Source of the DNA: a virus
Lineage: Duplodnaviria > Heunggongvirae > Uroviricota > Caudoviricetes
Reading direction: 5' to 3' (one strand)
DNA: 64,000 nucleotides
Virus record (IMG/VR): IMGVR_UViG_2576861193_000002
This document shows positions 26,902 through 49,255 of the stretch, in pieces. Numbering within the stretch: the stretch's first letter is position 1; each line of letters opens with the position of its first letter. The notes under the pieces are model-generated. The model did no database searches and was not told where the DNA came from. It was given only the letters and a program-made list of their open reading frames with translations. Both the position numbers and the translations under genes were made by a program.

Positions 26902-28137
26902 ATGTCTAAATTACCAACAGGTGTCGAGATTAGAGGTAGATACATTCGCATCTGGTTCATGTTTCGAGGAAAACGATGTCGGGAAACATTAAAAGGCTGG
27001 GAGATTACAAACAGTAATATTAAAAAGGCCGGAAATTTAAGAGTGCTGGTAGTTCATGAAATAAACTCCGGTGAATTTGAGTATTTAAGACGTTTTCCCC
27101 AGTCCAGCACTGGGGCAAAAATGGTGACAACGAGAGTCATAAAAACGTTCGGAGAGCTTTGTGATATCTGGACAAAAATTAAAGAGACAGAGTTAACAAC
27201 AAACACAATGAAGAAAACGAAATCACAATTAAAAACACTCAGAATAATAATTTGTGAAAGTACCCCGATATCACATATTCGTTATAGCGATATCTTAAAC
27301 TACCGGAATGAACTGCTGCATGGAGAAACGCTTTACCTGGATAATCCAAGATCCAACAAAAAAGGAAGAACCGTGCGCACAGTTGATAACTATATCGCCC
27401 TGCTCTGTTCGCTGTTGCGTTTTGCGTATCAGTCGGGATTTATATCAACCAAACCATTTGAAGGAGTAAAAAAATTACAGCGAAACAGAATAAAGCCTGA
27501 TCCGTTATCTAAAACAGAATTCAATGCATTAATGGAAAGTGAAAAAGGACAGAGCCAGAACTTGTGGAAATTTGCCGTTTACTCAGGACTTCGTCACGGG
27601 GAACTGGCAGCTCTGGCGTGGGAGGATGTGGATCTCGAAAAGGGAATAGTGAATGTCAGAAGAAACCTGACGATACTTGATATGTTCGGTCCCCCAAAAA
27701 CAAATGCCGGGATCCGAACAGTAACACTACTGCAGCCTGCTCTTGAAGCACTGAAGGAGCAATACAAACTGACCGGGCATCATCGCAAAAGCGAAATCAC
27801 CTTTTATCATCGGGAGTACGGCAGAACCGAAAAGCAAAAACTGCATTTTGTTTTCATGCCCAGGGTGTGTAACGGAAAACAAAAACCTTATTACTCGGTA
27901 AGCAGTTTGGGGGCAAGGTGGAATGCAGCAGTAAAACGTGCTGGTATTCGCCGCCGTAATCCGTACCATACGCGGCATACTTTTGCCTGCTGGCTGTTGA
28001 CGGCAGGAGCGAACCCGGCATTTATAGCCAGCCAAATGGGGCATGAAACTGCGCAGATGGTGTATGAAATTTACGGTATGTGGATTGATGACATGAACGA
28101 CGAACAGATAGCCATGTTGAATGCGCGGTTATCGTAG
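26902..28137 (+). CDS. intR: tyrosine integrase IntR
   Basis: 411 aa; C-terminal catalytic region; adjacent to ttcA. Confidence 0.9.
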   Translation: MSKLPTGVEIRGRYIRIWFMFRGKRCRETLKGWEITNSNIKKAGNLRVLVVHEINSGEFEYLRRFPQSSTGAKMVTTRVIKTFGELCDIWTKIKETELTTNTMKKTKSQLKTLRIIICESTPISHIRYSDILNYRNELLHGETLYLDNPRSNKKGRTVRTVDNYIALLCSLLRFAYQSGFISTKPFEGVKKLQRNRIKPDPLSKTEFNALMESEKGQSQNLWKFAVYSGLRHGELAALAWEDVDLEKGIVNVRRNLTILDMFGPPKTNAGIRTVTLLQPALEALKEQYKLTGHHRKSEITFYHREYGRTEKQKLHFVFMPRVCNGKQKPYYSVSSLGARWNAAVKRAGIRRRNPYHTRHTFACWLLTAGANPAFIASQMGHETAQMVYEIYGMWIDDMNDEQIAMLNARLS

Positions 28138-32541: not shown

Positions 32542-34731
32542 TTATTCTTCGCTTCCGGTCAACTGCCGGACAAGCTCTTCAAGTTTTGTGATCCGTTCAT
32601 CCATGACGGCAATGTTAGCTCGTAGGCTGGCATTCTCCCCTTCCAGTTCGGTGACGCGGTTATCTGTTTCGTGTGCCACCTGGACAAGTAAGCCAGTCAC
32701 TGCGGCATAATCAACATTGAGGTAACGCGATTCTTCGCGTAGCTCGTTGCCATCAATGGTCGGCCCCTGCAACTCTTTGCCGTAATGAGTAAACGATCCA
32801 ACAGCCTCCGGTAGCGCCTCCATAACCTCCTGAGCGATAACACCAGCGTAAGGCAGGCCGTTTTCCTTAAGGGTATAAGTGTACCCGTTCATTTTGCGGA
32901 TGGCTTCAGTTGCGTTATTTATAACCTGAATGTTGTCTTTAAGGTCGCGATCAGATGATTGATTTACTGATAAGCAAGTAACGCTTCCAGACGCTTTAAT
33001 ATTTGTCACATCAAGTCTGTCGTTTGCAAAATTATATGAGATTGCTGTGCTTGTGCTTCCGGCATCATCATAATTGCTTTTATGAATAAACCAGTTTCCG
33101 CCATTAGCAATAAGGGTATAAGCTGGCGTGTTAGCCGGGCGATCTGTTTCATCAAATCTTATTGCAGGGTTAGCACTATTTATTTGCAAAGGTTTTTCAA
33201 GCGTTGATTTCAGTATCGCACTATCTACAATTAAATTACCTTCTGAGTTAAGGTTTAGATATTTTGAATCACCAGTTGAACCATTGTATACAAACCTTAT
33301 TGTTAATTGACTTTTCCCTTCTGATAAAGTCTGAGCATACATATAAGCTGCAAGACGCAAATCGTCGTTAGTTGACAATAGTCTTGTGCGGAGGATTCCA
33401 CTAGATGTGCCTACGTCTGTCGAATCACTATATTTATCAAGAAATAGACTATTAAGCTGAGGGCTATTATCCCTGCCCAACCCTAGATTAGTTCTGGCAT
33501 TATCAAGGCTTGTCGCACCAGTGCCGCCTTGAGCAACGGCTAACGGTATCCATTTTTTTTGCGTATCGCTGTAACAACCCCACGATGAGGCAGATAAACC
33601 AAGTCGCATAGAGTTGTCAGCGTTATATATCCATGTTTCGCTGCCCCACTCACTAACCCTTTCGGTTGATACCATTTTTTTCCATGCGCTCCAACCTTGC
33701 CCGCCATACGACCTTCTGTAACTAATTTTCATATCGTTAAACAAATAATAGGTCTGCATGCACCCTTCTGAATCACCTGCGCCAGTTTTTTGCACTAACA
33801 ATGAACCAGCAATCTGTATGGGGTAATTTAATTCAGGTTTTGCGTTTGCTGATAATACTTGATGATAAAATCCTGCTGCGCTTCCTTTTAAGTCATCAAG
33901 ATTCTGTCTATCGCTAAGGGTAGTTTTTGCATCATGCATAACCATTAGGTTTTTTCTGGCTTCTGCTGCGTTTCCAGCACCAGTACCGCCATACATAACG
34001 CCTAACTTAAGTGCCCCGGCGGTTGAATAAGCACCCCACCCAGCGTTATTAACGAAGATGTAATTTTTATTTTCTCCGTCCCGCAACTGAGTTTCTTTTG
34101 AGGAACCACCATTTTGAAGCAAGCGATTTACTTCATCCTTGCGTGCGTGGCGTGTCCAGTTCTGGCCTGATGCTGCGACCCATGTATAAGTATAAAGTGA
34201 TCGCGTAGACCAACCGACAAAGACGCCAGCATATGAAGGCGACGCATCCCGCTGACAGATAAATCCACTCAAAAATGATTCGCCAGCCGCTACGGAAGGA
34301 AAGCCCTTAGTCGTTTCCTTTATGCGCAAAAAGCCAACGTAAGAAGACGGATCGCCTGATATATCGACGCAATCTCGCGGCTCTGGACCCAAGCCAATAT
34401 TGCTGCCATCTATTGCGCTTGATATTTCATCTTCCTTTTCCTGATAAAAACGAAGTGTTTCAGCTACATCCTGGGCAAGCCCATCAACTGAGATCGAATC
34501 AGAAAGCAGAATACTAAATTTTGTTCCGGCAGGGATGGCGGGGTTAGCCGCTGGCGTTACTGACAGTTCAGTACCGCTTTTAATTTCTGTGATGGTAAAG
34601 ATCTGCACCGGATTGCCGATTGCAATGAGCGTGCAACCTACACGAATGAGAGAAAGCGGCGCGGAAAAGTTTGTTCCCGTGCCTGTAACAGTATTGCCAT
34701 TAATGGCAATTGTTCCAGTTGTGTAAATCAT
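32542..34731 (-). CDS. tail fibre/tailspike with C-terminal intramolecular chaperone (peptidase S74-like) domain
   Basis: 729 aa; C-terminus …DLKDNIQVINNATEAIRKMNGYTYT… with coiled-coil tail, typical of autoproteolytic fibre chaperone domains. Confidence 0.75.
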   Translation of the reverse strand: MIYTTGTIAINGNTVTGTGTNFSAPLSLIRVGCTLIAIGNPVQIFTITEIKSGTELSVTPAANPAIPAGTKFSILLSDSISVDGLAQDVAETLRFYQEKEDEISSAIDGSNIGLGPEPRDCVDISGDPSSYVGFLRIKETTKGFPSVAAGESFLSGFICQRDASPSYAGVFVGWSTRSLYTYTWVAASGQNWTRHARKDEVNRLLQNGGSSKETQLRDGENKNYIFVNNAGWGAYSTAGALKLGVMYGGTGAGNAAEARKNLMVMHDAKTTLSDRQNLDDLKGSAAGFYHQVLSANAKPELNYPIQIAGSLLVQKTGAGDSEGCMQTYYLFNDMKISYRRSYGGQGWSAWKKMVSTERVSEWGSETWIYNADNSMRLGLSASSWGCYSDTQKKWIPLAVAQGGTGATSLDNARTNLGLGRDNSPQLNSLFLDKYSDSTDVGTSSGILRTRLLSTNDDLRLAAYMYAQTLSEGKSQLTIRFVYNGSTGDSKYLNLNSEGNLIVDSAILKSTLEKPLQINSANPAIRFDETDRPANTPAYTLIANGGNWFIHKSNYDDAGSTSTAISYNFANDRLDVTNIKASGSVTCLSVNQSSDRDLKDNIQVINNATEAIRKMNGYTYTLKENGLPYAGVIAQEVMEALPEAVGSFTHYGKELQGPTIDGNELREESRYLNVDYAAVTGLLVQVAHETDNRVTELEGENASLRANIAVMDERITKLEELVRQLTGSEE

Positions 34732-34865
34732 CGCAATGACTCCATTTTGTTAATTAACGGAATAATTCTACCATTTTGTGATCTGTGTTGCATTTTATGC
34801 TTATACAAAATGTATATTATAATAAACAAAGCAACAAATACACACAATCTGAGTGGGGTGTACTA

Positions 34866-35084
34866 ATGAAAATGGTAACAATTATCGCTGTTGCGGCTAT
34901 TCTGGTTGGTTGCGCTGACACTAATCGACACAACGGTCATTGTGCAACTAGCGCATACGGTGTCTGCTATGAAAGATGGGTTGATGGTGTAATGGTTCCT
35001 GCCGGGGAAATTTGTCGGGTGTATGATGGCACTGATGGCCATAGTGGCAAGACTAGAGATTGCGGAAGTAAGGAGTGGTATTAA
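34866..35084 (+). CDS. Cys-rich small lipoprotein (candidate receptor-masking / superinfection exclusion)
   Basis: 72 aa; signal peptide + lipobox LVGC; 6 Cys; counter-oriented between tail fibre and J. Confidence 0.55.
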   Translation: MKMVTIIAVAAILVGCADTNRHNGHCATSAYGVCYERWVDGVMVPAGEICRVYDGTDGHSGKTRDCGSKEWY

Positions 35085-36019
35085 TGGGTGCAGGTATATA
35101 TATTGGGCTGAATGACGGACGCCCTGCAATGGAAATAACAAGCGGGTTGCGTGCGTTCTCACACGCTGGAGATTTCAATATTCAAAAGGCCGGGTTTTTG
35201 CAAAGTTTTTCCATAAAGGATTTAACTGGCGGAGATAAGTTTTTAATCCCAAAGGCAGGCGCTTACGCGTTTGAGCTTGACCGGGGCGTTGAAACATATT
35301 TTATATCAGGCTTTAGTGCTTCTGGTGGCACGGCAAGGATTTCAATTAGTGGTGAGAACGCATATTCTGATAGGATCACTAATTTTAGCGGTAGCGTGTT
35401 TGAGATAGCAAAGGCGTCTACTGGTGAGGGTATATTAGTTGCAGATAGCACAGGTTTTGCATCGATAACGACTAACGATACATTGATGTCATGTTTATGG
35501 GTTGGAAGTGTTAGCTTTACTGGGTCTTACACTATGCCAGTTGCTGGCGTTCCTTTCGGTAACTGGAGCAATAGCGGAGTTTCAGTTGAGTTTGACGGAA
35601 ACAATAAATTGATCTGTACAAACACAAACACCTCTTCCACTGGTGACACATATGGATCTGTGGCGATGAATTTGGCTATTTTTAGCAAATCACCGCCATC
35701 ACCTGGCGACGGAATAACCATCATCAATAAAAATAATCAATGCGTGTTTTCAACAAAACAAAGGCCATTGGTTGTTAAGGGATTTATAACGTTATCTAAT
35801 AGTTATCAGAATATTGGTGACGCATTCTTCCCAATATTGAGATGCGGCTTTAATACCAGAGCCATTAAAGCATACAAGGAGCTAAGATACAAAGGCATTA
35901 TGATGTACAATGGGCAGGTGAAAAGCGGAACAGGATCAAGGATTGTCAGGTATGAAATAGGTAACAGGCCGGATTTCTGTATAGGTATGAAGCTACCTTA
36001 TTTGCCAGCAATTTATTAA
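35084..36019 (+). CDS. hypothetical Ser/Thr/Gly-rich protein
   Basis: ~311 aa; ATG overlaps lipoprotein stop, SD aaggag; no recognisable family. Confidence 0.5.
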   Translation: MGAGIYIGLNDGRPAMEITSGLRAFSHAGDFNIQKAGFLQSFSIKDLTGGDKFLIPKAGAYAFELDRGVETYFISGFSASGGTARISISGENAYSDRITNFSGSVFEIAKASTGEGILVADSTGFASITTNDTLMSCLWVGSVSFTGSYTMPVAGVPFGNWSNSGVSVEFDGNNKLICTNTNTSSTGDTYGSVAMNLAIFSKSPPSPGDGITIINKNNQCVFSTKQRPLVVKGFITLSNSYQNIGDAFFPILRCGFNTRAIKAYKELRYKGIMMYNGQVKSGTGSRIVRYEIGNRPDFCIGMKLPYLPAIY

Positions 36020-36059: not shown

Positions 36060-39000
36060 TTACCAAACACCAATAATAATTTTACCACCACTAGGAAGAT
36101 TTACCGTAATGCCGTTATTGTTAATAATTACCCGTCCGTCACTATTGCGTACATCGAAATTTTGATTGCCTTTAACAATGACGTTACCCCTTACGGTGAC
36201 TTCGTTGAATTGCGCCCATCCATCTTTGTTAATCATCCAACCTTTTGAGTCTTGAACAAATACGGTTGACTGGATTTGCTGCGCTATTTTTGCAGTACCG
36301 ATAGATCCGTCTTTAATAAACGCTTCTTTAACATACATTGCATCATTGGTGGTATAGAAAGGTGATGTGTATGTGCCGTTTGCTGCGGTCATCAACACGA
36401 AGCGGTCAACGAGGAAAATACACTGCGATTGAACGTTAGTGCCGCTACCAGTCAGCCCAAGAGACATACCTGTTGCATACTTCATGCCGTTGTTGTCGGT
36501 TGCCAGCTTGATAGAGTACGTCGCATCAACATTACCTTTGAAGTCGGTTAACGCTTTCGACGTCGTCTGTATCGCTGTTGTGTTCCCGTTAACGGTCACT
36601 GTTAGCTGATCGATTTTGCTTGATAATGCCTCGTCAGCCGTCGCCATTGCCTGCGACCATTCTGTAATATTTGAGTTTACAGAATCGAAAGACGCTGAGA
36701 TCTGGCCAAATTTTTCCGCGCTTGATGCTTCATGCGTAGAAAGTGCCGTTGACACCTCTGATACCTTCGAATTAATCGTACTGGTAAGCGATGAGTTAAG
36801 ACTACTGATTGCGTCAGTACGGGCCTTCGTTTCGTCTGCAATAGCCTTATCAATACGGGTTACGTTACTTGTCACCTTACTATCAAGCGTGGAAATTGAT
36901 GCGTTCACTCCGCTGATAGCCTGGGCGCGGGCGCTTGATTCGTCGGCAATAGCCTGATCCAGCCTGCTAACTTCAGATTCAGTGTTGTTTTCAAGCGTGC
37001 TAATACTTGCATTCACTCCACTGATAGCTTCAGTTCTTGCGCTTGTCTCATCTGCAATGGCTTTATCAAGACGGCTTATTCTTGAATCCGTTTTCTTGTC
37101 TAGCGCTGACACTGAGGCATTTACTCCGCTGATAGCCTCGCTGCGTGCGCTGGTTTCGTCTGCAATTGCCCTATCAAGGCGGTTGACGCTTGCTTCCGTC
37201 TTCCTATCAAGATCGGTGATCGATGCGTTTACGGAGCTAATGGCTTCCGCTGTGGCTTTTTTCTCCTCTGCTATAACATTGTCAATACGGTCAATTTGCG
37301 CGTTGGTTTCTTTGCGGCCTTTCTTGTATTGGGCCGTGAGAGTAACCCGCGTGTTGGTTTGAGCAATAGAGTTGTTGATAAGTGCGATTGAGGCGTTTTG
37401 CAGACTTGCTTTAGTCTGATTTATTTCGTCGCTGTTTTTGTCAACGTTATTTTCAACAGTGCCAAGCTCCGCGCTGATGCCCGATATTGCCTGTGCACGG
37501 GCGCTTGATTCATCTGCAATTGCCTGATCAAGACGTTTAACGCTGGCGTTTGTGCTATTTTCAAGCGTTGTTAAATCAGCTTTAACCTCTGTTATTGCGG
37601 CGCTTCTTGCCTGCGTTTCATCTGATATTGCTTTATCAAGACGGGAAACGCTCGCGTCAGTTTTGCTTTCAAGATTGCTTATTGAGGCGTTAACGTCGCT
37701 AATGGCCTGGGTGCGGGCACTGGTTTCATCTGCAACCGCTTGATCCAGTCTGCTTACTTCTGATTCTGTATTGTTTTCAAGTGTGCTAATACTTGCATTC
37801 ACGCTACTGATAGCGTCTGTGCGTGCTTTTGTTTCGTCTGCTATCGCTTTATCAATGCGGTTAATGTTGCTTGTAACTTTGCCGTCAAGCGTGGAAATTG
37901 AGGTATTCACGCCGCTGATGGCTTCAGTTCTTGCACTGGTTTCATCTGCAATTGCCTGATCCAAGCGTTTTACGCTGGCGTCAGTTTTCTTGTCTAGCGT
38001 TGAAATACTTGCATTTACGTCGCTGATGGCTTGAGTCCGCGCGCTAGTCTCGTCAGCGATTGCTTGATCAAGGCGGTTAACGCTTGCGTCAGTTTTCTTA
38101 TCAAGATTGCTTATTGAAGCGTTTACACCGTTAATAGCTTCAGCGCGGGCGCTGGCCTCGTCAGCTACTGCGCGCTGCACGTTAGAAATCTGACCTTTAA
38201 GGTTGGAGTCCATCGTATTCATTTCTGCTGTGATGGTTTCCAGTGATTCCGCTGTCGCTTTTTTCTCTTCAGCGATAACGTTGTCAATGCGGTCGATTTC
38301 CGCTTTAGTCTCTGTCCTGCCTTTCTTGTACTGAGCGGTAAGAGTTACGCGCGTGTTTGTCTGTGCAAGTGAGTTATTAATAAGAGCAAGTGACGCGTTT
38401 TGCAGGCTTGCTTTTGCTTGCGCCAGTTCGCTGCCAACTTTTTCGCTGGACACTTCTAATGAGTCAATTCTTGCCTCATGCTGTCCAATATCATCGGCGT
38501 TTTCCTCAACCTTTTTATAAAGATCTTCCGTTTCTTTTTTCAGTGTGTCCGTATCAGCTTTTATGGCCCCTGTTTCTGTGATTAGGCCGTCCGTATCAAT
38601 CCTCAAATCGTCAGTGATGTTTGTCAGGTTGTCCGTGTCAACCCTCAAATCGTCAGTGATGTTTGTCAGGTTATCAGTTGCAGTTTTGAGGTTGTCGGTA
38701 GCAGTTTTAAGGTCATTTGTAGCGCTTTCGATAAGATCAGCGCGGTCGCCAAGATCTTTAATGTCGCTAATCATCCCCTTAAACTGTTCTGAATTAATTA
38801 CGTCTTTTGTGACGTAGTCGCTAATTTCATCGAAGTTTTCAGTTGGTTTGCCTGATGCCTCAACGAAATCTGACACGCCAAAAGCGTTACGTGTACGAAT
38901 ATAAACGTAATAGGTGTGCCCCGTGTTCATGCCGCCAAAAGTCCACTGATAGCCGCGCCCGGTAAACTGCGCTGATGTGGTTACTTTTGATGGATCTGTG

Positions 39001-41243
39001 ATCTGGTTTTCACCTGCGAAGTAAAATTCGTATGCTGTATCAGTGGTCAGGGTTGTTTTGCTAATCGGATACACTGTTGCCTGGAAAACACCAGGAACCC
39101 AATTAACGCCGACCGGGGCCGCTGGTGCACCAATAACCAGGTCCACAATACTTTCCGCACCCTTCATGCCAGTGTCATTACGCCCGCGAATACCAAGCGT
39201 GTAGCTGCCAGTATCAAGGCCATAAAACTCATAGCGGTAATTCGTTGTTTCATAAGTTGCCACCACGCGGCCTTCGGCGTTATATACGCGTATTTCAAAG
39301 GTCAGGCGATGCGTTGTCGTCTGTGTTTCCCATGTAGCGCGACATTGAACAGTTTCAGAACCAACATTTAACACCTTCAGGTTTTCAATGTTCGGCACGC
39401 GGAAGTGATTAAGCGTGTCGTTGTTTACCTCAAAGATTGCGCCTTCATCGACTACAGCCTGTTTATGTGGGTCATGCTGTGCTGCCTCGATGGTGTACAC
39501 GCTGTTGTTTTCAGTTTCTGCTACGCTGATGATTCGGCACAGGACGGGTTTTGCTGCGTCAGTTGATACAGCAAAAACAGTTCCGTTACGAATCCACGCG
39601 GGGGCGGCTGCAAGGGTGATATTGTTTCCGTTAACTCCGGTGATCTGGTGTTTTTTAAACTTGCCATCACTATCAAGTAAACTAATGGTATCGCCTGCGG
39701 CGATGTATTCCGAATCAACCTTATCTACCGTTATCACCTTGCCATTATTCGCCACGATACGACCGCCAAAACGAGCGCCTGCGCGGTTATTGTCGAGTAT
39801 CTCGATAATATCCCCAGGGGTGAAGTGAATTGCGTCGCGGGCCATTTTAAACGTGAATTTTGATGGTTCGCGTTTTGCTGTTTCTATCAGCCACTTGCCA
39901 GCGCGGTATGCCTGCCCGCGTGAAGTGCAACCGAAAGCCTCTAGCGTGGTTTCGTTATAACCATCGCGGGCGATCAATTCATCATCTGCCACGTATTCTT
40001 TTGATTGCTCCCAACCGTTTTCCGGGTCAGTCCATGACACGATAACTGCGTTGTAAGATTCTGCACGGGCAATACTTGAACGAGTAAACGCGCCATCAAC
40101 AACGTTAGCATTCGTGATGGTAGCAATTGGATCTTGCGGTGCATCAATCATCACCGTAAGGCGCTGCCCATCCCATAACGCGATACCACGGAACATGCCT
40201 GCGATATTGTCCAGTAAGTCGCGGGCGCTCATTTGCTCAGTTATGTAAGCATTAAGCGTCATGCGAGGTTCAAAGCCGCCGTAACCGTCGTTTACCAACT
40301 GGTCGCAGTATTGAGAAAGCGTATATAATGCGCCGTCGTCAACATCAATGTAACCAGCATGACGTGCAAGCCCGAAACGTTCATTTTTAACCAGATACCG
40401 GAATAGCCACGCAGGGTTATTGGTGTACGCTTTTTTAAATCCACCTAGCCATAAACCTGAATACGTGCGCGTTTCAGGGTTATAGTTGTCAGGCACATCA
40501 ACAATCAGTCCGCGCAGATGATAGGTGCGGGTAGGTGTATCAGTATACTGGTCATGGTCAATTACAGCACCAGCTACAGCGGTATGAGGGTAAGACAGGT
40601 TATCGTCGATTATTTCGCTGTAGCTACTCCACCGCGTATCATTACGAAGAAGATCGCTTTTGCTGTCTGCTGTTACGCGACGAACGCGAATATCAAACGG
40701 CTTTTCATCCGGCGCTTTGATAATGTGAGCTTCCAGATATTCACCGCTTTGTTTACCGGGACCAATGTGTATACCTTTAACCGGCGACCACGTAGAAGAT
40801 GATGACGGTTTAACATCAACCACCAACATAACGGATGTATTATATTGATTGCCCTCATCATCTGACTGAACAAGAGCATCAACGCCAAGATTTAACCTTA
40901 CGCGGGTAACGTTTGGATCTGAAACAGTCCTTATTATTGGCGTGTCGTGAGTTACCTTTGCGTTGACAATAACGGTTGATTCGATGGCATTAAAACCATT
41001 AATCGGCGATTGGTCAGCCGTGCCGTTGCGCCAGGCTATACTAATCCCAGGAATTGATGTGTTTCCGTTTGCGTCAGTGATAGGCGTGTCATTAAGCATT
41101 ACGTTGTTTAATGGCGCATTCTGGTTAACTACTCCAAAAATTGGTCCTTCACTTAGAATATCTAAAACCCGATAAAATTGTTTATGAAACAAATTATCAT
41201 TAAGCAAAGTTGGTGTTTTTGCTTTACCGCCGCCACTAGACAT
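36060..41243 (-). CDS. J-like host specificity / central tail fibre protein with long coiled-coil repeat insert
   Basis: 1727 aa; follows L-K-I; middle third is tandem ~35-aa repeats (…DETSARTQAISDVNASISTLDKKTDASVKRLDQAIA…). Confidence 0.85.
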   Translation of the reverse strand: MSSGGGKAKTPTLLNDNLFHKQFYRVLDILSEGPIFGVVNQNAPLNNVMLNDTPITDANGNTSIPGISIAWRNGTADQSPINGFNAIESTVIVNAKVTHDTPIIRTVSDPNVTRVRLNLGVDALVQSDDEGNQYNTSVMLVVDVKPSSSSTWSPVKGIHIGPGKQSGEYLEAHIIKAPDEKPFDIRVRRVTADSKSDLLRNDTRWSSYSEIIDDNLSYPHTAVAGAVIDHDQYTDTPTRTYHLRGLIVDVPDNYNPETRTYSGLWLGGFKKAYTNNPAWLFRYLVKNERFGLARHAGYIDVDDGALYTLSQYCDQLVNDGYGGFEPRMTLNAYITEQMSARDLLDNIAGMFRGIALWDGQRLTVMIDAPQDPIATITNANVVDGAFTRSSIARAESYNAVIVSWTDPENGWEQSKEYVADDELIARDGYNETTLEAFGCTSRGQAYRAGKWLIETAKREPSKFTFKMARDAIHFTPGDIIEILDNNRAGARFGGRIVANNGKVITVDKVDSEYIAAGDTISLLDSDGKFKKHQITGVNGNNITLAAAPAWIRNGTVFAVSTDAAKPVLCRIISVAETENNSVYTIEAAQHDPHKQAVVDEGAIFEVNNDTLNHFRVPNIENLKVLNVGSETVQCRATWETQTTTHRLTFEIRVYNAEGRVVATYETTNYRYEFYGLDTGSYTLGIRGRNDTGMKGAESIVDLVIGAPAAPVGVNWVPGVFQATVYPISKTTLTTDTAYEFYFAGENQITDPSKVTTSAQFTGRGYQWTFGGMNTGHTYYVYIRTRNAFGVSDFVEASGKPTENFDEISDYVTKDVINSEQFKGMISDIKDLGDRADLIESATNDLKTATDNLKTATDNLTNITDDLRVDTDNLTNITDDLRIDTDGLITETGAIKADTDTLKKETEDLYKKVEENADDIGQHEARIDSLEVSSEKVGSELAQAKASLQNASLALINNSLAQTNTRVTLTAQYKKGRTETKAEIDRIDNVIAEEKKATAESLETITAEMNTMDSNLKGQISNVQRAVADEASARAEAINGVNASISNLDKKTDASVNRLDQAIADETSARTQAISDVNASISTLDKKTDASVKRLDQAIADETSARTEAISGVNTSISTLDGKVTSNINRIDKAIADETKARTDAISSVNASISTLENNTESEVSRLDQAVADETSARTQAISDVNASISNLESKTDASVSRLDKAISDETQARSAAITEVKADLTTLENSTNASVKRLDQAIADESSARAQAISGISAELGTVENNVDKNSDEINQTKASLQNASIALINNSIAQTNTRVTLTAQYKKGRKETNAQIDRIDNVIAEEKKATAEAISSVNASITDLDRKTEASVNRLDRAIADETSARSEAISGVNASVSALDKKTDSRISRLDKAIADETSARTEAISGVNASISTLENNTESEVSRLDQAIADESSARAQAISGVNASISTLDSKVTSNVTRIDKAIADETKARTDAISSLNSSLTSTINSKVSEVSTALSTHEASSAEKFGQISASFDSVNSNITEWSQAMATADEALSSKIDQLTVTVNGNTTAIQTTSKALTDFKGNVDATYSIKLATDNNGMKYATGMSLGLTGSGTNVQSQCIFLVDRFVLMTAANGTYTSPFYTTNDAMYVKEAFIKDGSIGTAKIAQQIQSTVFVQDSKGWMINKDGWAQFNEVTVRGNVIVKGNQNFDVRNSDGRVIINNNGITVNLPSGGKIIIGVW

Positions 41244-41802
41244 ATAGACCCCCTGTTTCGTGTAATTTCGTGTATCCTGCGCCAGCTTTATTTAGCTCTT
41301 CAATCATGAATGACCGCCACGCGACGGCGGCATTAATAGCCATTTCAAGTCCACCGCACGCTATAACGCTAAATGATTTACTAACTCTTTTGTCGTTATC
41401 AGCGGTGATACGTGCTCTAATAGATCTCCCTTCTGCGTGCCAACATATCCCAAATGGCAATCCGCTCTCCCTTGTCGCGCGACCTATGGTCATATTTCTG
41501 GCGTTACCTTTTTTATCTGTTACGCGTATGTTATTGAATTTATTATTAAGCCCATTACCATCAATGTGATCGATGATCTCACTGCGTTTTAATTTTCTGC
41601 CACTGCATAATTCGTAAACAATCCGGTGAGCATAATAGCGACGGCCCTTCCATGTGATTTTCCAGTACTTATTGCCGCTTTTTGCCGCTACTATTTTTCC
41701 TGCCGCATCGCCAGTCCTCGCCGTTCTGCTGTTAGCGGTGACTTTCCACCTTAAACATGAAGGAGAATCTTCATCATAAACAAACAATTCAGACCAGTTC
41801 AC
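41236..41802 (-). CDS. HNH homing endonuclease (HNH_3-type)
   Basis: 188 aa; motif IDHIDGNGLNNKFNNIR; inserted between tail genes I and J. Confidence 0.75.
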   Translation of the reverse strand: MNWSELFVYDEDSPSCLRWKVTANSRTARTGDAAGKIVAAKSGNKYWKITWKGRRYYAHRIVYELCSGRKLKRSEIIDHIDGNGLNNKFNNIRVTDKKGNARNMTIGRATRESGLPFGICWHAEGRSIRARITADNDKRVSKSFSVIACGGLEMAINAAVAWRSFMIEELNKAGAGYTKLHETGGLYV

Positions 41803-41814
41803 TGTAACCCCCTA

Positions 41815-42345
41815 TTAACTTACAACGTCTAAGGCGTCTCTGTTGTTACTTGTATCTATGCCTAACGATCCGACGTTTGAACCTATTTTCATTTCACCCA
41901 ACAGGATCGGCACTGGCCTACCCTGGCCTACCTTGTTTTCAATGCTGGTGTAGGTGTTGTTAGATATGGTGTTATCTTGTGCGCTTTCTGCTGATGTCTT
42001 TATCTTCATATTGCGAGACATGAAGATCGAGAACGCAACACTAACAACCGAAACACCGATCAAAATCCAGCCTACAACGCCAATTCCTGCAATACCACCT
42101 TCCACCACTGGCGCAACAATGACTGTAGTCCCATCCGGGTATTTACTGTTAACCGCTGCTGGCGCGGTCTTTTCGTCATAATCTTTCCCGGCAATTCGTA
42201 AGCGCAATGGTGTGTTTAAAAACGCCTTCTTGAACTCCTGATTCTGTGCGGTCAATAAGCCAAGTCCCTGCGCTGGCGTATCAACGTTTAAACACACCTT
42301 GCCGTAATATCTTCGAAGATTGCCCGTAAATCTAAATTTGAGCAT
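41815..42345 (-). CDS. tail assembly protein I-like
   Basis: 176 aa; position between K and J; hydrophobic central segment. Confidence 0.7.
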   Translation of the reverse strand: MLKFRFTGNLRRYYGKVCLNVDTPAQGLGLLTAQNQEFKKAFLNTPLRLRIAGKDYDEKTAPAAVNSKYPDGTTVIVAPVVEGGIAGIGVVGWILIGVSVVSVAFSIFMSRNMKIKTSAESAQDNTISNNTYTSIENKVGQGRPVPILLGEMKIGSNVGSLGIDTSNNRDALDVVS

Positions 42346-43019
42346 TTGTCAGATCTCCATATTGAATGCGTTTGTCTAACATAAGCGGGCCGCATTTGCT
42401 CGCGGCGGCTTAATAGTCCGGCATTGTCATGATGCAAAACGGTGTTATCTCCCAGGTAAATCATCGCGTGACATGGGTCAGCACCCTTAAACGGCTGACG
42501 GATAATCACGTCACCCGGCTGAATGCTTTGCGCGTCAACCATGAAAAACCCGTTCAATGGCAGGTTTTTTATATACAGGTTTTCCCCACGCAGCCACCAC
42601 CCATCGTGGCGTTCAAAGTCCGGTAGATCCACGCCGCAAAGGTGATAGGCGTCACGGAAAAGCGAGTAGCAGTCTGTTTTACCGTGCTCAAATTTACGAC
42701 CTAACAGGTGAGCTACAGGGCGGAACTTTCTTACCCTGCCACCGGAACATAAAAACCACGGCAGGCCGGAAATAACTTGCTGTTGTCGATCCCGTGCTGA
42801 CAATACTAATGAATTGTCAGTATGGGAGTGAAAAACTGCAGTTATAACGCCTAATTCGTCAGCTTTGATATAATCGTCAGGCGAGATTTTAAAGCTGTTG
42901 TGAGGCGTTTCAGACACGTTTAAGCATGGGTAAAAATAATCGTTATCTATCACCAGCCCGCACACCTCCTCTTCCTGGTGGGCTGCTGCATAGCGAATCA
43001 TTTTATCTTCAAGTGCCAT
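42288..43019 (-). CDS. tail assembly protein K-like (JAB/MPN + NlpC/P60-type)
   Basis: Start set at internal Met MALEDKMIRYAAAH; EVCGLV motif; C-terminal Cys/His region. Confidence 0.7.
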   Translation of the reverse strand: MALEDKMIRYAAAHQEEEVCGLVIDNDYFYPCLNVSETPHNSFKISPDDYIKADELGVITAVFHSHTDNSLVLSARDRQQQVISGLPWFLCSGGRVRKFRPVAHLLGRKFEHGKTDCYSLFRDAYHLCGVDLPDFERHDGWWLRGENLYIKNLPLNGFFMVDAQSIQPGDVIIRQPFKGADPCHAMIYLGDNTVLHHDNAGLLSRREQMRPAYVRQTHSIWRSDKCSNLDLRAIFEDITARCV

Positions 43020-43021
43020 AA

Positions 43022-43726
43022 TTAACCCACCTTGCTCGATCCAGGAAAACATGAAATTGGTAACGGATTCGGGCGCGGAAAACGCAAACGGCAACCGCTT
43101 AGGCGGTGGCTGCATTTGTCCATCCTTGGATCGTTGGTTGATTCGTCTTTATCGGTAGCTACAGGGCCGCCACTATATCCGCAACCGTCGCCGCGATACT
43201 GCCACTGGCAAACGTCAGCGAGAATTGTGCGCCCAGGGATAACAGCTTTATCAGCATCAATTGGCGTTGACAGTTCATATTGCACCTGGTCGGCTGTTTC
43301 TTCGCTCATCGCCTCAACGACGTAAAAAGATACAGCCTCAATAGATGGATCTGCATCTGGGTTGCCGTTGGGGAAGTTGATAGCGTCCAGGTATTTTACT
43401 TCCACCTGGCGGCGCGTAACCTTCATTCCTCGAAGGTCGTTAAAATCGTTATTCATCCCAGTGATTAGCCCGCCAATGTTGGCTACTACCATTTGGGGGC
43501 GTGAGTAAACGCCTTCGTTTTTCATTTCGAAGCCAGTCGCCTCGATTGGGTAGCTGTTGTAGGCCACTCCCTTCCAGATAACCGGGCCGTAATAGCCATT
43601 CGCGCCGGAATGGAAGCGGATAATCTCGCCACCCAGGGGCGTGAGGTCTAATTCAAACAAGTCAATTACCGCACCGACTCCGGCATCCACGGAATCAATA
43701 ATCATTTCTGTAGGTATGCTGCGCAT
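43022..43726 (-). CDS. minor tail protein L-like
   Basis: 234 aa; synteny M-L-K-I-J; C-terminal Cys cluster. Confidence 0.75.
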   Translation of the reverse strand: MRSIPTEMIIDSVDAGVGAVIDLFELDLTPLGGEIIRFHSGANGYYGPVIWKGVAYNSYPIEATGFEMKNEGVYSRPQMVVANIGGLITGMNNDFNDLRGMKVTRRQVEVKYLDAINFPNGNPDADPSIEAVSFYVVEAMSEETADQVQYELSTPIDADKAVIPGRTILADVCQWQYRGDGCGYSGGPVATDKDESTNDPRMDKCSHRLSGCRLRFPRPNPLPISCFPGSSKVG

Positions 43727-47047: not shown

Positions 47048-49255
47048 TTATCTTTTTCGTGGCTGTATAATCCCCCCGGGGCGCGTGCTCTGCTCCCTCA
47101 CAACACCCATAGCAACCTTCTTCATCGTCTCTTGCAGTTTGGCGCTGTCCTGCTCGGTCCATCCGTTCTCGGCTGTTATGTTGATGGTAACAGGCATGTT
47201 GATGCCGCCACCGCCGCCAATGTCGCGATTTGGTATTACCCTGCCGTTGTCACCCGGAATCATGTACTGCTCGCCGTTTCGAGATTGGAAGATCTCTGGC
47301 TTGCCGTGCTCGCCAACCCTATAAAGATTATTGCTATTAACCGCACCGCCGTTATAACGAGCGCCAGCAAGCCCAAGCGCCTTAGCCCCAGCCACACCAG
47401 TGGCAAGACTCGTGCCCCCCACGGTCGCCGCTCCGCCCATCGTGGCAACGTTTGCCAGGTATGCAGGAGTGGCCCACGCAGATCCTAATGCAGTAGCCTC
47501 GGCTAGTGCTTTAGCTGTTGCCGCAGCGCTGGCGGCCTCACCGATCAATTGCTGTTTAACCCATTCAGCCCCCATTTGAACAAGTGTACCGATAACGGAG
47601 GAAAGGATTGTATTGCCAATGTTAGCCAGCGCCTGCTGCCAACTTTGAGTGCCGTTAACCAGGCCCACAAGCGCATTTGTTGCAGATCCTCCCATTGCAT
47701 CAACGGTATCACCCAATAGTTTGTAGCTCATTGACTGTGCTTTATATCGCTCCCATTCAATGGAGATCATTTCTTGTGCGTGCGCTCTTTCTTGCTCCTT
47801 CATGTATTGCTCGGTAGCGCCAAGATCTTCCAGCATTTGCTTGCGTATGGTCCATTCATTTTGCGCCTGCTGTATTGGGTCCAGCTCGCCGCGCTTCTGA
47901 TCCAGTGATGAAATCATTTTGTCCCATTTTTCTTGCAGCCTATTGATCGGGTCGTTAATTTCTGCTAGAGTTTCGCGCAATTCATCACCAATTCCCTTCA
48001 TTGCGCCTTTGTATTCAAGCATGGTTATTTTCCCGGCTTTAAAGGCTGCATCTATGGCTTTTTGTGATTCAAGCGCTTTGCGCATTGCTGCTGAATCTTC
48101 GTTGTATGCATCTGAAATGCGCACACCCTGTTCCGCAAGGCGCTCGGCTTCTGATTTGCCGGATTTTTTACCTTTGCCTTTATTACCCTTGCCACCAGGT
48201 TGAGGCTTAAATGTTATGCGACTTACACCAGCTTGCCCCGTGGGGAGAGTGGAAACAAATGGCTGTTCTCCATCGCCAAACCATCCAACCTGTTTTGCTT
48301 GAGCGCGGAACAAACTAAGCCCAGGCACTATACCCTCAAACGCCCCAGCCAATAGCCACAATTTGTCAGTTAATGACGTGCTGTCGCTCGCCAGGGACTT
48401 AAACCAGCCGGATAATATTTGGACTTCACTAGAGATAGCTTGTATACCAGTAACCACCAAATCGGACACGCCAAGCGTTTGATTTAGCGTGTCGATTAGC
48501 AGATCGAAGTTGTTTTTTAGCTCGTTAAATGCCTGATCTGTTGTTGTTGGCAGCTTTGCGAAGTCCTTCTCTATGTCTTCTGCGCCAGCAAGAATTGCGT
48601 TGGTAACATCCTCAGCGGTGAGCTTACCATCAAGCATTCTTGCGCGAAGTTCACCCATCGAGATTCCCATTTGTTTGGATACGCGCCGCCACACCTCTGG
48701 CATGTTTTCAAGTACAGAGTTGTATTCTTCCGCGCGAACAATGCCGCCCGTCAGTGACTGCCCTAACTGGCGAAGTGCGTTTGACATTTCATCTGATGAG
48801 CTACCACCGATACGCCCTATTTTTTGAAGCGAGTCGGTAAGCTGCAATACCTGCTGACTTGTCGCACTGGTATCCTGAAGGCTGGCCTTCAGGCTTTCCC
48901 ACAGCTTCCCGGTGCTTTGAACGCTCATCCCTGTACGATTCGATATCTGAATAATCCCGTCAAAATTCGATTTTGCGTCAGCAATGCCACTCGACAGGCG
49001 CGTCACCCTGGCACGAAGCAGATTTACGTTATCCGCGATCTCCAGGAATTTTTTTGCAGCCATAACCATCATCCCAATGTTCACAGCTTTAGATAAATTA
49101 CTTATTGTGGTGTTAAGTGACTTTACTGATTTATCGGTGCGTTTAGCGCCTTGCTCGATTTTATCAAACGAGTCTTCAGCCTTGCGTTGAGCTACAAGTA
49201 ACCGTTCGGTTTTTGCGTCAACGGTATATTCGATCGTGCCTACATTTGTGGTCAT
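47048..49255 (-). CDS. tail tape measure protein
   Basis: 735 aa, coiled-coil rich, Gly-rich C-terminal region; between tail chaperone and M. Confidence 0.85.
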   Translation of the reverse strand: MTTNVGTIEYTVDAKTERLLVAQRKAEDSFDKIEQGAKRTDKSVKSLNTTISNLSKAVNIGMMVMAAKKFLEIADNVNLLRARVTRLSSGIADAKSNFDGIIQISNRTGMSVQSTGKLWESLKASLQDTSATSQQVLQLTDSLQKIGRIGGSSSDEMSNALRQLGQSLTGGIVRAEEYNSVLENMPEVWRRVSKQMGISMGELRARMLDGKLTAEDVTNAILAGAEDIEKDFAKLPTTTDQAFNELKNNFDLLIDTLNQTLGVSDLVVTGIQAISSEVQILSGWFKSLASDSTSLTDKLWLLAGAFEGIVPGLSLFRAQAKQVGWFGDGEQPFVSTLPTGQAGVSRITFKPQPGGKGNKGKGKKSGKSEAERLAEQGVRISDAYNEDSAAMRKALESQKAIDAAFKAGKITMLEYKGAMKGIGDELRETLAEINDPINRLQEKWDKMISSLDQKRGELDPIQQAQNEWTIRKQMLEDLGATEQYMKEQERAHAQEMISIEWERYKAQSMSYKLLGDTVDAMGGSATNALVGLVNGTQSWQQALANIGNTILSSVIGTLVQMGAEWVKQQLIGEAASAAATAKALAEATALGSAWATPAYLANVATMGGAATVGGTSLATGVAGAKALGLAGARYNGGAVNSNNLYRVGEHGKPEIFQSRNGEQYMIPGDNGRVIPNRDIGGGGGINMPVTINITAENGWTEQDSAKLQETMKKVAMGVVREQSTRPGGIIQPRKR

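What the first reader, a model, noticed from the sequence alone, without database searches (positions are those of the whole stretch)
36560..38640. J-like tail tip protein expanded to 1727 aa by a tandem ~35-aa coiled-coil repeat array with two super-repeats
About twenty ~105-bp repeats (…DETSARTQAISDVNASISTLDKKTDASVKRLDQAIA…) plus a duplicated ~400-aa block (both starting ASLQNAS(L/I)ALINNS(L/I)AQTNTRVTLTAQYKKGR) lengthen the central fibre by hundreds of residues. Such arrays are prone to recombinational length variation. The repeat also creates long antisense pseudo-ORFs.
Basis: seen in the sequence. Interest (0 to 1): 0.45.

Follow-up and report, generated by a model that had tools for sequence, protein, structure and literature searches.

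The report
Repeat-lengthened phage central tail fibre
This is the J-type tail-tip/central-fibre gene of an mEp021-like E. coli prophage, whose shaft is lengthened by twelve 36-residue helical repeats; the repeat number differs between related phages, and the repeats have already been noted in the literature, so it is real but ordinary.

Summary
The ORF is real: window 36060-41243 (-), 1727 aa. It is a lambda-J-like tip attachment/central fibre protein. It has the same length as the J protein of phage mEp021 and is 90.4% identical to it in DNA.

The repeat description is only partly right.
- The unit is 36 aa (108 bp), not about 105 bp.
- There are 12 recognisable units plus one degenerate unit, not about twenty. 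They form two arrays of 7 and 5.
- The "super-repeat" has a 334-aa period. Its second copy matches the first over only about 216 aa, not about 400.

Residues about 840-1544 contain no proline and have a 3.5-3.6-residue hydrophobic period. AlphaFold2 modelled residues 1281-1544 as one unbroken helix. The region is best read as a greatly expanded trimeric alpha-helical shaft. It sits between the Ig/FNIII domains and a beta-prism "tail tip" domain that carries an mEp021-type (OmpA-dependent) tip.

Among 48 related J genes the unit count runs from 0 to 14, and mEp515 lacks exactly 334 aa in register. The units are old: 72-79% DNA identity between copies, each matching its positional counterpart in mEp021. 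An assembly artefact is therefore unlikely.

A 2025 paper on the mEpimmI phages already notes these repeats. [quoted passage not shown]

The parts
36060..41243 (-). J-type tip attachment / central tail fibre gene, 1727 aa plus stop codon
   Evidence: ORF list and translation. Pfam and PHROG J-family domains. Same length as mEp021_79 and 90.4% nt identity to it. Lambda gpJ (8iyk) aligns to aa 1-851, E 2.8e-179.
39420..41243 (-). N-terminal hub region, aa 1-608 (FNIII-A_GpJ 88-214, Phage-tail_3 335-496)
   Evidence: Pfam; alignment to lambda gpJ.
38811..39419 (-). Two Ig/FNIII-like domains, aa 609-811 (Ig_J, Ig_J_second)
   Evidence: Pfam E 8.9e-16 and 6e-32.
36612..38726 (-). Predicted alpha-helical shaft, aa ~840-1544: no proline, hydrophobic period 3.5-3.6
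   Evidence: 0 Pro in aa 812-1560 against 34 in aa 1-811. Fourier peak at 3.60 in the arrays and 3.52 in aa 840-944. AF2 gives a single helix for aa 1281-1544, with pLDDT >90 using the alignment and ~80 using a single sequence. Upstream of aa 1279 the helix is inferred from sequence only.
38544..38681 (-). Short heptad-based repeats, aa 855-900 (TDNLKTA x2-3; TDNLTNITDDLRxD x2)
   Evidence: TRF 42-bp x2 at 95% match and 21-bp rows. 30-nt exact repeat. Relatives lack 14 or 35 aa here, which are multiples of 7.
37410..38411 (-). Super-repeat 1, aa 945-1278: ~80-aa head (ASLQNASLALINNS...) plus array 1
   Evidence: Motif positions; self-comparison at offset 1002 nt.
37416..38171 (-). Array 1: seven 36-aa units, aa 1025-1276
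   Evidence: HMM hits of 55-71 bits, all exactly 36 aa apart.
36741..37409 (-). Super-repeat 2, aa 1279-1501: head (ASLQNASIALINNS...) plus array 2
36741..37274 (-). Array 2: five 36-aa units, aa 1324-1501 (first and last imperfect)
   Evidence: HMM hits of 38-73 bits.
36171..36575 (-). Phage_Tail_Tip (PF09327) domain, aa 1557-1691; probable beta-prism part of the central fibre
   Evidence: Pfam E 2.7e-36. phmmer to the F2-pyocin central fibre 25vf_A (E 2.1e-28), to 23gd_D 'J-like tail tip protein gp24' (E 2.2e-31), and weakly to lambda J 837-934. Foldseek to the lambda closed central fibre 8xck_F, prob 0.98 but E 1.7e-2.
36063..36170 (-). C-terminal tip, aa 1692-1727 (...LPSGGKIIIGVW); mEp021/mEp515 type
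   Evidence: The last 90 aa are 98.9% identical to mEp021 and mEp515. Those two phages need OmpA (PMC11893012, section 3.6). The same ending occurs in 23gd_D (...VGTW).

Best explanation
The gene encodes the J-type tail-tip hub and central fibre protein of an mEp021-like (mEpimmI group) temperate siphophage. The prophage is integrated in the E. coli chromosome.

The N-terminal ~810 residues build the conserved hub and two Ig/FNIII domains, as in lambda gpJ. Lambda has a short alpha-helical shaft at the next position. This protein has about 700 proline-free residues there, and they most likely form a long parallel three-stranded alpha-helical coiled coil. The shaft consists of:
- a heptad-based segment with 7- and 14-aa repeats;
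- two 'super-repeats', each an ~80-aa head followed by an array of 36-aa units (7 units and 5 units). Thirty-six residues equal ten helical turns at 3.6 residues per turn, so adding or removing whole units keeps the hydrophobic seam in register.

The shaft ends in a beta-prism 'tail tip' domain and a small C-terminal tip almost identical to that of the OmpA-dependent phages mEp021 and mEp515.

The array therefore works as a modular spacer. It sets how far the receptor-binding tip projects beyond the tail tip: roughly 100 nm if fully extended, which is an inference. Its length changes over evolutionary time by in-register unequal recombination between units or between the two heads, independently of which receptor-binding tip is attached.

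Shown here: gene identity, repeat anatomy, helix prediction for aa 1281-1544, and copy-number variation among relatives. Inferred: the trimeric state, the extended length, the spacer role and OmpA as receptor.
For: - Identity: J-family domains and the lambda gpJ match. Gene order is TMP-L-K-I-(HNH)-J-DUF6453-lipoprotein-S74 fibre, the same as in mEp021. DNA identity to mEp021 J is 90.4% with equal length. The mEp021 J protein was found in virions by mass spectrometry (PMC11893012).
- Anatomy: 12 units at exact 36-aa spacing, heads at aa 945 and 1279, and an offset-1002-nt self-match.
- Helix: no Pro in aa 812-1560 and periods of 3.60 and 3.52. AF2 gives an unbroken helix for aa 1281-1544 both with and without an alignment. 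The F2 pyocin central fibre has a solved long three-stranded alpha-helical shaft at the same position (PMC13455828), and its C-terminal part aligns with window aa 1404-1677 at E 2.1e-28.
- Length variation: units per gene range from 3 to 14 in 16 phages and prophages and from 0 to 11 in 32 IMG/VR genomes. mEp515 equals mEp021 minus 334 aa, with the junction in register inside a unit. The same tip type occurs with different unit numbers.
- Selection on the protein: 58% of the aa positions that are identical between units use different codons.
Against: - No oligomer model could be made, so trimeric coiled-coil packing is inferred from homology and periodicity.
- The repeat array on its own has no significant sequence match to any solved structure (best E 0.021, generic coiled coils).
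- AF2 was run only on aa 1279-1727. Helicity of aa 840-1278 rests on sequence features and on the similarity of its units to those modelled.
- A rigid fibre of ~100 nm would be nearly as long as the ~130-nm tail reported for these phages, and the text I read does not mention one. The shaft may be bent, folded back at the heads, or shorter than calculated.
- No experiment links shaft length to host range or adsorption.
Confidence: 0.7

Rival explanations
1. Fold-switching spring. The repeat array is a metastable coiled coil. On receptor binding it refolds into a beta-prism, seeded by the C-terminal beta-prism domain. That would shorten the fibre by tens of nanometres, pull the tail tip to the outer membrane and power opening of the tip. 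This has been shown for a 163-residue segment of the F7 pyocin central fibre and, on a small scale, for the lambda alpha-helical shaft.
For: - The C-terminal region is homologous to an F-type pyocin central fibre (25vf_A, E 2.1e-28). In the F7 preprint, 21 of 24 phage central fibre proteins related to the last 400 residues of the F7 pyocin fibre were predicted to switch fold (PMC12874032).
- Every 36-aa unit contains one forward match (A8-A18, e.g. ARTQAISDVNA) and one reverse match (A29-A3', e.g. ASVKRLDQAIA) to the published strand motif SxSxxMxxLxS. That gives 41 matches in aa 840-1560 against 11 +/- 3 in shuffles, and 4 in aa 1-839. Alternating orientation at about 18-aa spacing is what antiparallel prism strands would need.
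- The units are rich in Ala, Ser, Thr, Val, Ile and Asn, which is unusual for a stable coiled coil.
- In lambda, residues 841-861 of the shaft convert to beta-sheet on LamB binding (PMC11101478).
Against: - AF2 gave only the helix, with high confidence, both with a 58-sequence alignment and with a single sequence. This was monomer mode, which cannot build an intertwined trimeric prism, so the test is weak.
- The motif matches are not independent, because the units are copies of each other. At this composition about 0.5 chance matches per unit are expected.
- The array alone shows no significant sequence similarity to the pyocin shaft. The pyocin alignment score comes mostly from residues downstream of the array.
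- The F7 work is a preprint, and it states that lambda and T5 do not show an extensive switch.
Confidence: 0.25
2. Docking platform. The two heads and/or the repeats serve mainly as attachment sites for side fibres or accessory proteins, such as the S74-chaperone tail fibre or the DUF6453 virion protein encoded just downstream. In the F2 pyocin, three side-fibre trimers attach to a kink in the alpha-helical shaft.
For: - F2 pyocin side fibres bind the shaft of the central fibre (PMC13455828).
- The head segment modelled by AF2 (the head of super-repeat 2) has lower pLDDT (61-84) than the units (>90).
- A side-fibre gene (32542-34731) and a DUF6453 gene follow J. The mEp021 counterpart of the DUF6453 gene is annotated as a virion structural protein.
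Against: - No glycine kink or insertion domain is predicted in the modelled part; AF2 runs the helix straight through the head.
- Relatives with a single head and 2-5 units, including mEp515, which was isolated and characterised as a phage and has 4 units, carry the same kind of downstream genes. Extra units are therefore not needed for assembly.
Confidence: 0.1
3. Assembly artefact. The repeat region is a mis-assembly, with copies collapsed or expanded.
For: None beyond the general risk that repeats carry.
Against: - Units differ by 21-28% in DNA, and no exact match of 20 nt or more exists between 108-bp units. Reads therefore place uniquely.
- The same 7+5 layout at identical positions is present in three independently sequenced phages: mEp021, mEp044 and mEp554.
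- Each window unit is 78-96% identical to its positional counterpart in mEp021.
- The reading frame is intact over 5184 nt.
Confidence: 0.02

Closest known systems
J protein of phage mEp021 (mEp021_79, AXN54198.1) and the other mEpimmI phages
   Same: - Same length (1727 aa) and 90.4% nt identity over the whole gene.
- Same 7+5 unit layout and the same heads at aa 945 and 1279.
- The last 90 aa are 98.9% identical.
- Same flanking HNH, DUF6453 and lipoprotein genes.
- The 2025 paper already states that these J proteins differ in size and contain 'repeats of different length (positions 950-1,475)'.
   Different: - About 10% nucleotide divergence, concentrated in aa 1000-1200 (82-85% identity).
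- The downstream side-fibre gene is longer here: 729 aa with an S74 chaperone, against 450 aa for mEp021_82.
- The integration site is inside dgcM.
Bacteriophage lambda gpJ (PDB 8IYK, 8XCK, 8XCJ)
   Same: - Hub domains, FNIII-A and two Ig/FNIII domains align over aa 1-851, E 2.8e-179.
- Same overall order: hub, FNIII, alpha-helical shaft, beta-prism, receptor-binding tip (PMC11101478).
- Weak similarity between the beta-prism regions.
   Different: - Lambda is 1132 aa with a short shaft and contains none of the 36-aa units.
- The receptor-binding domain is unrelated: LamB for lambda, OmpA inferred here.
F-type pyocin central fibre proteins (F2: PDB 25VF; F7: bioRxiv 2026.01.28.702463)
   Same: - J-like N-terminus (E 1.1e-122).
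- A long three-stranded alpha-helical shaft after the FNIII domains.
- The C-terminal ~270 residues align with window aa 1404-1677, E 2.1e-28.
- The SxSxxMxxLxS-type pattern is present.
   Different: - The pyocin shaft is about 160-250 residues and is not described as a regular 36-aa tandem array; here the shaft is about 700 residues.
- The fold switch has been demonstrated for F7 only and is untested here.
- The pyocin fibres lack a canonical receptor-binding domain.
Stalks of trimeric autotransporter adhesins and other repeat-built fibre coiled coils
   Same: - Distant hits to the array include P0128, a protein with a YadA membrane anchor and 36- and 18-residue periodicity (E 4.5e-24).
- Both are built as a fibre lengthened by tandem units.
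   Different: - No common ancestry is shown. Matches between coiled coils are prone to compositional bias.
- The cellular context is entirely different.

Membership tests
Lambda-J-like tip attachment / central tail fibre protein (TipJ) | N-terminal hub domains (Phage-tail_3, FNIII-A_GpJ) homologous to lambda gpJ | tested here: met
   Pfam E 1.2e-28 and 4.2e-35. phmmer to 8iyk_J gives E 2.8e-179 over aa 1-851.
Lambda-J-like tip attachment / central tail fibre protein (TipJ) | Two tandem Ig/FNIII domains after the hub | tested here: met
   Ig_J 609-707 and Ig_J_second 709-811.
Lambda-J-like tip attachment / central tail fibre protein (TipJ) | Position at the end of the tail module, after the tape measure, L, K and I genes | tested here: met
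   TMP_3 47048-49255; Phage_tail_L 43022-43726; NlpC/P60+JAB 42288-43115; the counterpart of mEp021 protein I at 41815-42345.
Lambda-J-like tip attachment / central tail fibre protein (TipJ) | C-terminal tail tip fibre domain (PF09327) | tested here: met
   aa 1557-1691, E 2.7e-36.
Lambda-J-like tip attachment / central tail fibre protein (TipJ) | Trimer at the tail tip of the virion | not testable with these tools
   Only monomer prediction was available. The mEp021 orthologue was detected in virions by MS (PMC11893012).
mEpimmI phage group (mEp021-like) | High nucleotide identity and shared gene order with the sequenced mEp phages | tested here: met
   J gene 83-91% identical to 7 phage records. 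Same neighbours as mEp021. Only the tail arm of the prophage lies in the window, so whole-genome criteria were not checked.
Parallel trimeric alpha-helical coiled coil | Continuous helix with a hydrophobic seam at 3.5-3.6-residue period and no helix breakers | tested here: met
   Periods of 3.60 and 3.52 and 0 Pro in 749 aa. AF2 helix for aa 1281-1544.
Parallel trimeric alpha-helical coiled coil | Three-stranded packing | not testable with these tools
   Inferred from the trimeric state of lambda gpJ and from the solved F2 pyocin shaft.
Fold-switching central fibre (F7-pyocin type) | Homology of the C-terminal ~400 residues to the F-pyocin central fibre | tested here: met
   25vf_A residues 917-1185 align with window aa 1404-1677, E 2.1e-28.
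Fold-switching central fibre (F7-pyocin type) | SxSxxMxxLxS strand motif in alternating orientation | tested here: inconclusive
   One forward and one reverse match per unit; 41 matches against 11 +/- 3 in shuffles. The units are copies of one another, and the composition makes chance matches likely.
Fold-switching central fibre (F7-pyocin type) | Both coiled-coil and beta-prism conformations obtainable (by prediction or experiment) | tested here: inconclusive
   Only the helix was obtained with a 58-sequence alignment and with a single sequence. Monomer mode cannot form a trimeric prism.

The most novel reading that the evidence does not exclude
The ~700-residue repeat shaft is a giant version of the F7-pyocin fold switch. 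Each 36-aa unit would be a pre-formed beta-hairpin 'cassette': one forward and one reverse SxSxxMxxLxS strand. In the resting virion it is stored as ten turns of coiled coil. OmpA binding would then zip the shaft into a beta-prism, shortening it from about 100 nm to about 20 nm. Unit number would set both the reach and the stored energy.
Probability: 0.2. Interest if true: 0.65.

Novelty: new member of a known kind. Interest (0 to 1): 0.28.

Why it matters
As it stands, this is a correctly identified but ordinary prophage tail gene. Its close relatives have been sequenced and characterised, and the repeats are mentioned in print.

The modest added value is a precise anatomy: a 36-aa unit equal to ten helical turns, two arrays behind duplicated heads, and heptad-multiple indels upstream. 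There is also a survey showing 0-14 units in 48 related genes, independent of the receptor-binding tip. This makes the mEp phages a convenient natural series for testing how central-fibre length affects adsorption through O-antigen or capsule.

If the fold-switch reading were true, the array would be a tunable mechanical element. It would extend a very recent pyocin finding to a common group of gut coliphages.

Tried and rejected
- Assembly artefact: rejected. The units are 21-28% divergent in DNA, and the same layout occurs in three independent phage genomes.
- Recent slippage or concerted evolution: largely rejected. Units match their positional counterparts in mEp021 better than their paralogues. 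The one exception is unit 1133 against unit 1395.
- Antisense ORFs as genes or as a repeat-specific effect: rejected. Equally long stop-free antisense stretches occur outside the repeats, and none is annotated in the mEp genomes.
- Direct sequence match of the array to a solved structure: only generic coiled-coil noise.
- Foldseek of the AF2 model against the PDB: no hit with E <= 0.001, only weak matches to the lambda central fibre. The C-terminal beta part of the monomer model has low confidence.
- Deep-versus-shallow AF2 comparison as a fold-switch test: both runs gave a helix, which is uninformative in monomer mode.
- Literature search for the PDB entry 23gd ('J-like tail tip protein gp24'): nothing useful.
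- Promoter and terminator scan of the gene: fewer promoter-like sites than in shuffles (2 against a mean of 9.5) and no excess of terminator-like sites.
- The search for homologous proteins returned only relatives of 1376 aa or shorter (0-5 units), although longer ones exist in GenBank, RefSeq and IMG/VR. Copy-number statistics were therefore taken from the DNA collections instead.
Full report
**What is there.**
The window carries a single 1727-codon ORF on the minus strand at 36060-41243. Pfam finds these J-type domains:
- FNIII-A_GpJ, aa 88-214
- Phage-tail_3, aa 335-496
- Ig_J, aa 609-707
- Ig_J_second, aa 709-811
- Phage_Tail_Tip, aa 1557-1691

PHROGs places the protein in phrog_31, 'central tail fiber J'. 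Lambda gpJ (PDB 8IYK) aligns to aa 1-851 at E 2.8e-179 and not beyond. The gene order is that of a lambda-like tail module: tape measure (47048-49255), L, K (NlpC/P60+JAB), I, a small HNH ORF, J, then a DUF6453 gene, a phage lipoprotein gene and a side-fibre gene with an S74 chaperone domain.

**Where it comes from.**
Window 53-32393 is 99.95% identical to an E. coli chromosome: a Rac-type prophage with recE/recT/intR, then ttcA, dbpA and zntB. The match stops 52 nt into dgcM. From there to the end of the window runs one arm of a prophage.

The J gene is 90.4% identical over its full length to J of phage mEp021, with identical length. It is 83-91% identical to J of mEp044, mEp554, mEp515, mEp010, mEp013 and MagusPhagus. 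The neighbours match the mEp021 annotation. These phages form the 'mEpimmI' group described in Front Microbiol 2025 (PMC11893012). [quoted passage not shown] It also reports that mEp021 and mEp515 need OmpA, while the other four need LamB.

**Checking the observation.**
The reported span 36560-38640 corresponds to aa 868-1562 and does contain the repeats.
- *Unit size and number.* The unit is 36 aa = 108 bp (TRF period 108; anchors A[IV][AS]DE exactly 36 aa apart). An HMM built from eleven clear units finds seven contiguous units at aa 1025-1276 and five at aa 1324-1501, plus a degenerate one at aa 990-1020. That is 12-13 units, not 'about twenty'.
- *Super-repeat.* ASLQNAS occurs at aa 945 and 1279. 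The 334-aa offset is the super-repeat period. Similarity at that offset extends only over aa 945-1160 against aa 1279-1494. The first 52 aa of the two heads are 90% identical in protein and 79% in DNA. The 'duplicated ~400-aa block' is therefore overstated.
- *Second repeat system.* Upstream, at aa 855-900, lies a separate heptad-based system: TDNLKTA and TDNLTNITDDLRxD (42-bp and 21-bp TRF rows).
- *Antisense ORFs.* These exist in the repeats (stop-free stretches of 91-134 aa). Equally long ones (113-139 aa) lie in the non-repeat part of the gene.

**Age and stability of the array.**
Copies share 72-79% DNA identity. No exact match of 20 nt or more exists between 108-bp units; only the 42-bp repeat has a 30-nt exact match. 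Of the aa positions that are identical between units, 58% use different codons. That pattern points to selection on the protein rather than recent duplication.

Each unit is 78-96% identical to the unit at the same position in mEp021, but only 52-82% identical to its best paralogue. The one exception is unit 1133, which is 82% identical to unit 1395 and 80% to its positional counterpart; this hints at gene conversion. The 7+5 layout is identical in mEp021, mEp044 and mEp554. Together these results make an assembly artefact very unlikely. They also show that the array is not in rapid flux in this lineage.

**Length variation among relatives.**
- *Sixteen phage and E. coli prophage genes.* J ranges from 1393 to 1935 aa. 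Array 1 has 3, 4, 7, 8 or 11 units and array 2 has 0, 3, 4 or 5 (total 3-14).
- *mEp515.* It equals mEp021 minus exactly 334 aa, with the junction in register inside a unit (...AIADETSARTE|AISGVNASISTLDSKV...). That is the expected product of unequal crossing-over between units of the two super-repeats.
- *Thirty-two full-length genes from IMG/VR.* These have 0-11 units in thirteen different layouts. The same C-terminal tip type occurs with different unit numbers.
- *Heptad segment.* Relatives differ here by 14 or 35 aa, both multiples of seven.
- *Shorter homologues.* 115 homologues of 1211-1376 aa have 0-5 units, most often 2.

The window, with 12 units, sits near the top of the range.

**Structure.**
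Residues 812-1560 contain no proline, against 34 in the first 811 residues, and are 96% A/S/T/D/E/N/I/L/K/R/Q/V. Hydrophobicity has its strongest Fourier peak at 3.60 residues in both arrays and at 3.52 in aa 840-944. Thirty-six residues at 3.6 per turn make exactly ten turns. Gaining or losing a whole unit therefore keeps the seam in register.

AlphaFold2 was run on aa 1279-1727. It gave one unbroken helix for aa 1281-1544 with a 58-sequence alignment (pLDDT >90 over the units). Without an alignment it gave aa 1280-1551 (pLDDT ~80). Beta structure follows in the tail-tip domain, at low confidence for a monomer.

In lambda the corresponding position holds a short three-helix 'alpha-helical shaft', followed by a beta-prism and the receptor-binding domain (PMC11101478). 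In the F2 pyocin the shaft is long and has been solved as a three-stranded coiled coil (PMC13455828). The window's aa 1404-1677 align with F2 residues 917-1185 at E 2.1e-28. Its aa 1488-1727, including the very C-terminus, align with PDB 23gd_D at E 2.2e-31.

The repeat region is therefore best described as a greatly expanded alpha-helical shaft. Trimeric packing and an extended length of about 100 nm (about 700 residues at 0.15 nm each) are inferences. The array alone has no significant match among solved structures.

**Receptor.**
The last 90 aa are 98.9% identical to those of mEp021 and mEp515. These are the two OmpA-dependent phages of the group. OmpA is thus the inferred receptor.

**Mechanism and rivals.**
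The best-supported reading is a modular spacer that sets the reach of the receptor-binding tip and is resized by in-register recombination, independently of tip type.

A more interesting rival comes from a 2026 preprint (PMC12874032). It shows that a 163-residue coiled coil in the F7 pyocin central fibre refolds into a beta-prism on target binding. It predicts the same for 21 of 24 related phage fibres, with a strand motif SxSxxMxxLxS.
- *For.* Every 36-aa unit here carries one forward match (A8-A18) and one reverse match (A29-A3') to that motif: 41 matches in aa 840-1560 against 11 +/- 3 in shuffles. The composition is unusually rich in small and beta-branched residues.
- *Against.* The matches are copies of one another, and chance matches are frequent at this composition. 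The array itself is not detectably homologous to the pyocin shaft. My two AF2 runs gave only the helix, though monomer mode cannot form a trimeric prism.

I rate this reading at about 0.2-0.25. A docking-platform role, as for F2 pyocin side fibres, is possible but has little support. Artefact and antisense-gene readings are rejected.

**How widespread.**
An exhaustive HMMER search of 1.84 billion representatives with aa 945-1510 found only 178 proteins at E <= 1e-3, and 6 at E <= 1e-30. Of the 149 representatives examined, 15 share the J N-terminus and 34 share the tail-tip C-terminus. Many distant hits also show a 36-residue period, including a protein with a YadA membrane anchor. The 36-residue coiled-coil unit is thus a recurring building block of fibrous proteins. 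This particular sequence family, however, is narrow.

**Verdict.**
The feature is real and correctly assigned to a J-like protein, but several numbers in the finding are wrong. The gene is a close relative of a published, characterised phage protein whose repeats have been noted before. Novelty: a new member of a known kind. Interest is low to moderate. The fold-switch hypothesis and the natural copy-number series are the only parts worth following up.

Noticed in passing
window 41236-41802 (-): A 188-aa ORF with an HNH_3 endonuclease domain sits between tail assembly gene I and J and overlaps the J start by 8 nt. The same insert is present in mEp021 (mEp021_78) and mEp515 (mEp515_105). It is absent from mEp044, mEp554, mEp010, mEp013, MagusPhagus and the E. 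coli prophages fetched, where J follows I directly. Among the phages and prophages fetched, it was seen only in genes with the ...GVW (OmpA-type) tip. It may be a homing endonuclease travelling with that J allele.
   Followed up: partly
window 32393 (junction); 1-28137: Host synteny with E. coli strain 2017.17.01CC (99.95% identity) ends at window 32393, 52 nt into dgcM (ydaM). The mEp021-like prophage is therefore inserted in the 5' end of dgcM. A separate Rac-type prophage (recE, recT, kilR, sieB, intR at 26902-28137) with inserted cargo genes (MFS transporter, BCCT transporter) occupies the left part of the window.
   Followed up: partly
window 32542-34731 (-): The last prophage gene before the junction encodes a 729-aa fibre protein with a Peptidase_S74 intramolecular chaperone domain (aa 593-644). 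In mEp021 the gene at this position (mEp021_82) is only 450 aa, and other relatives carry 1100-aa 'tail fiber domain-containing' or 'pyocin knob/S74' proteins. The side-fibre module is swapped independently of J.
   Followed up: no
window 37740-37847 (unit at aa 1133) and 36954-37061 (unit at aa 1395): These two units, one in each array, are 92% identical in protein and 82% in DNA. That is closer than unit 1133 is to its positional counterpart in mEp021 (80%). It is the only sign of gene conversion between the two arrays.
   Followed up: partly
proteins P0122-P0145: Many distant hits to the array also have a 36-residue (sometimes 18-residue) self-repeat period. Examples are a 2921-aa J-like protein (P0123) and a 1834-aa protein with a YadA membrane anchor (P0128). 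A 36-residue, ten-turn unit may be a general building block of long trimeric fibres.
   Followed up: partly
output (relatives of the window protein): Precomputed domain lists of some relatives include PF28217, a Pfam family newer than the local Pfam copy. It could not be identified here and may cover part of the shaft. The word-indexed protein search also returned no relative longer than 1376 aa, although proteins of 1393-1935 aa exist in GenBank, RefSeq and IMG/VR.
   Followed up: no
window 34785-35084 (+) and 35075-36019 (+): A phage lipoprotein gene (PF24052) and a DUF6453 gene lie on the opposite strand immediately downstream of J. The lipoprotein gene may belong to the Lpp superinfection-exclusion lipoproteins that the mEpimmI paper describes for this phage group. 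The mEp021 counterpart of the DUF6453 gene is annotated as a virion structural protein.
   Followed up: no
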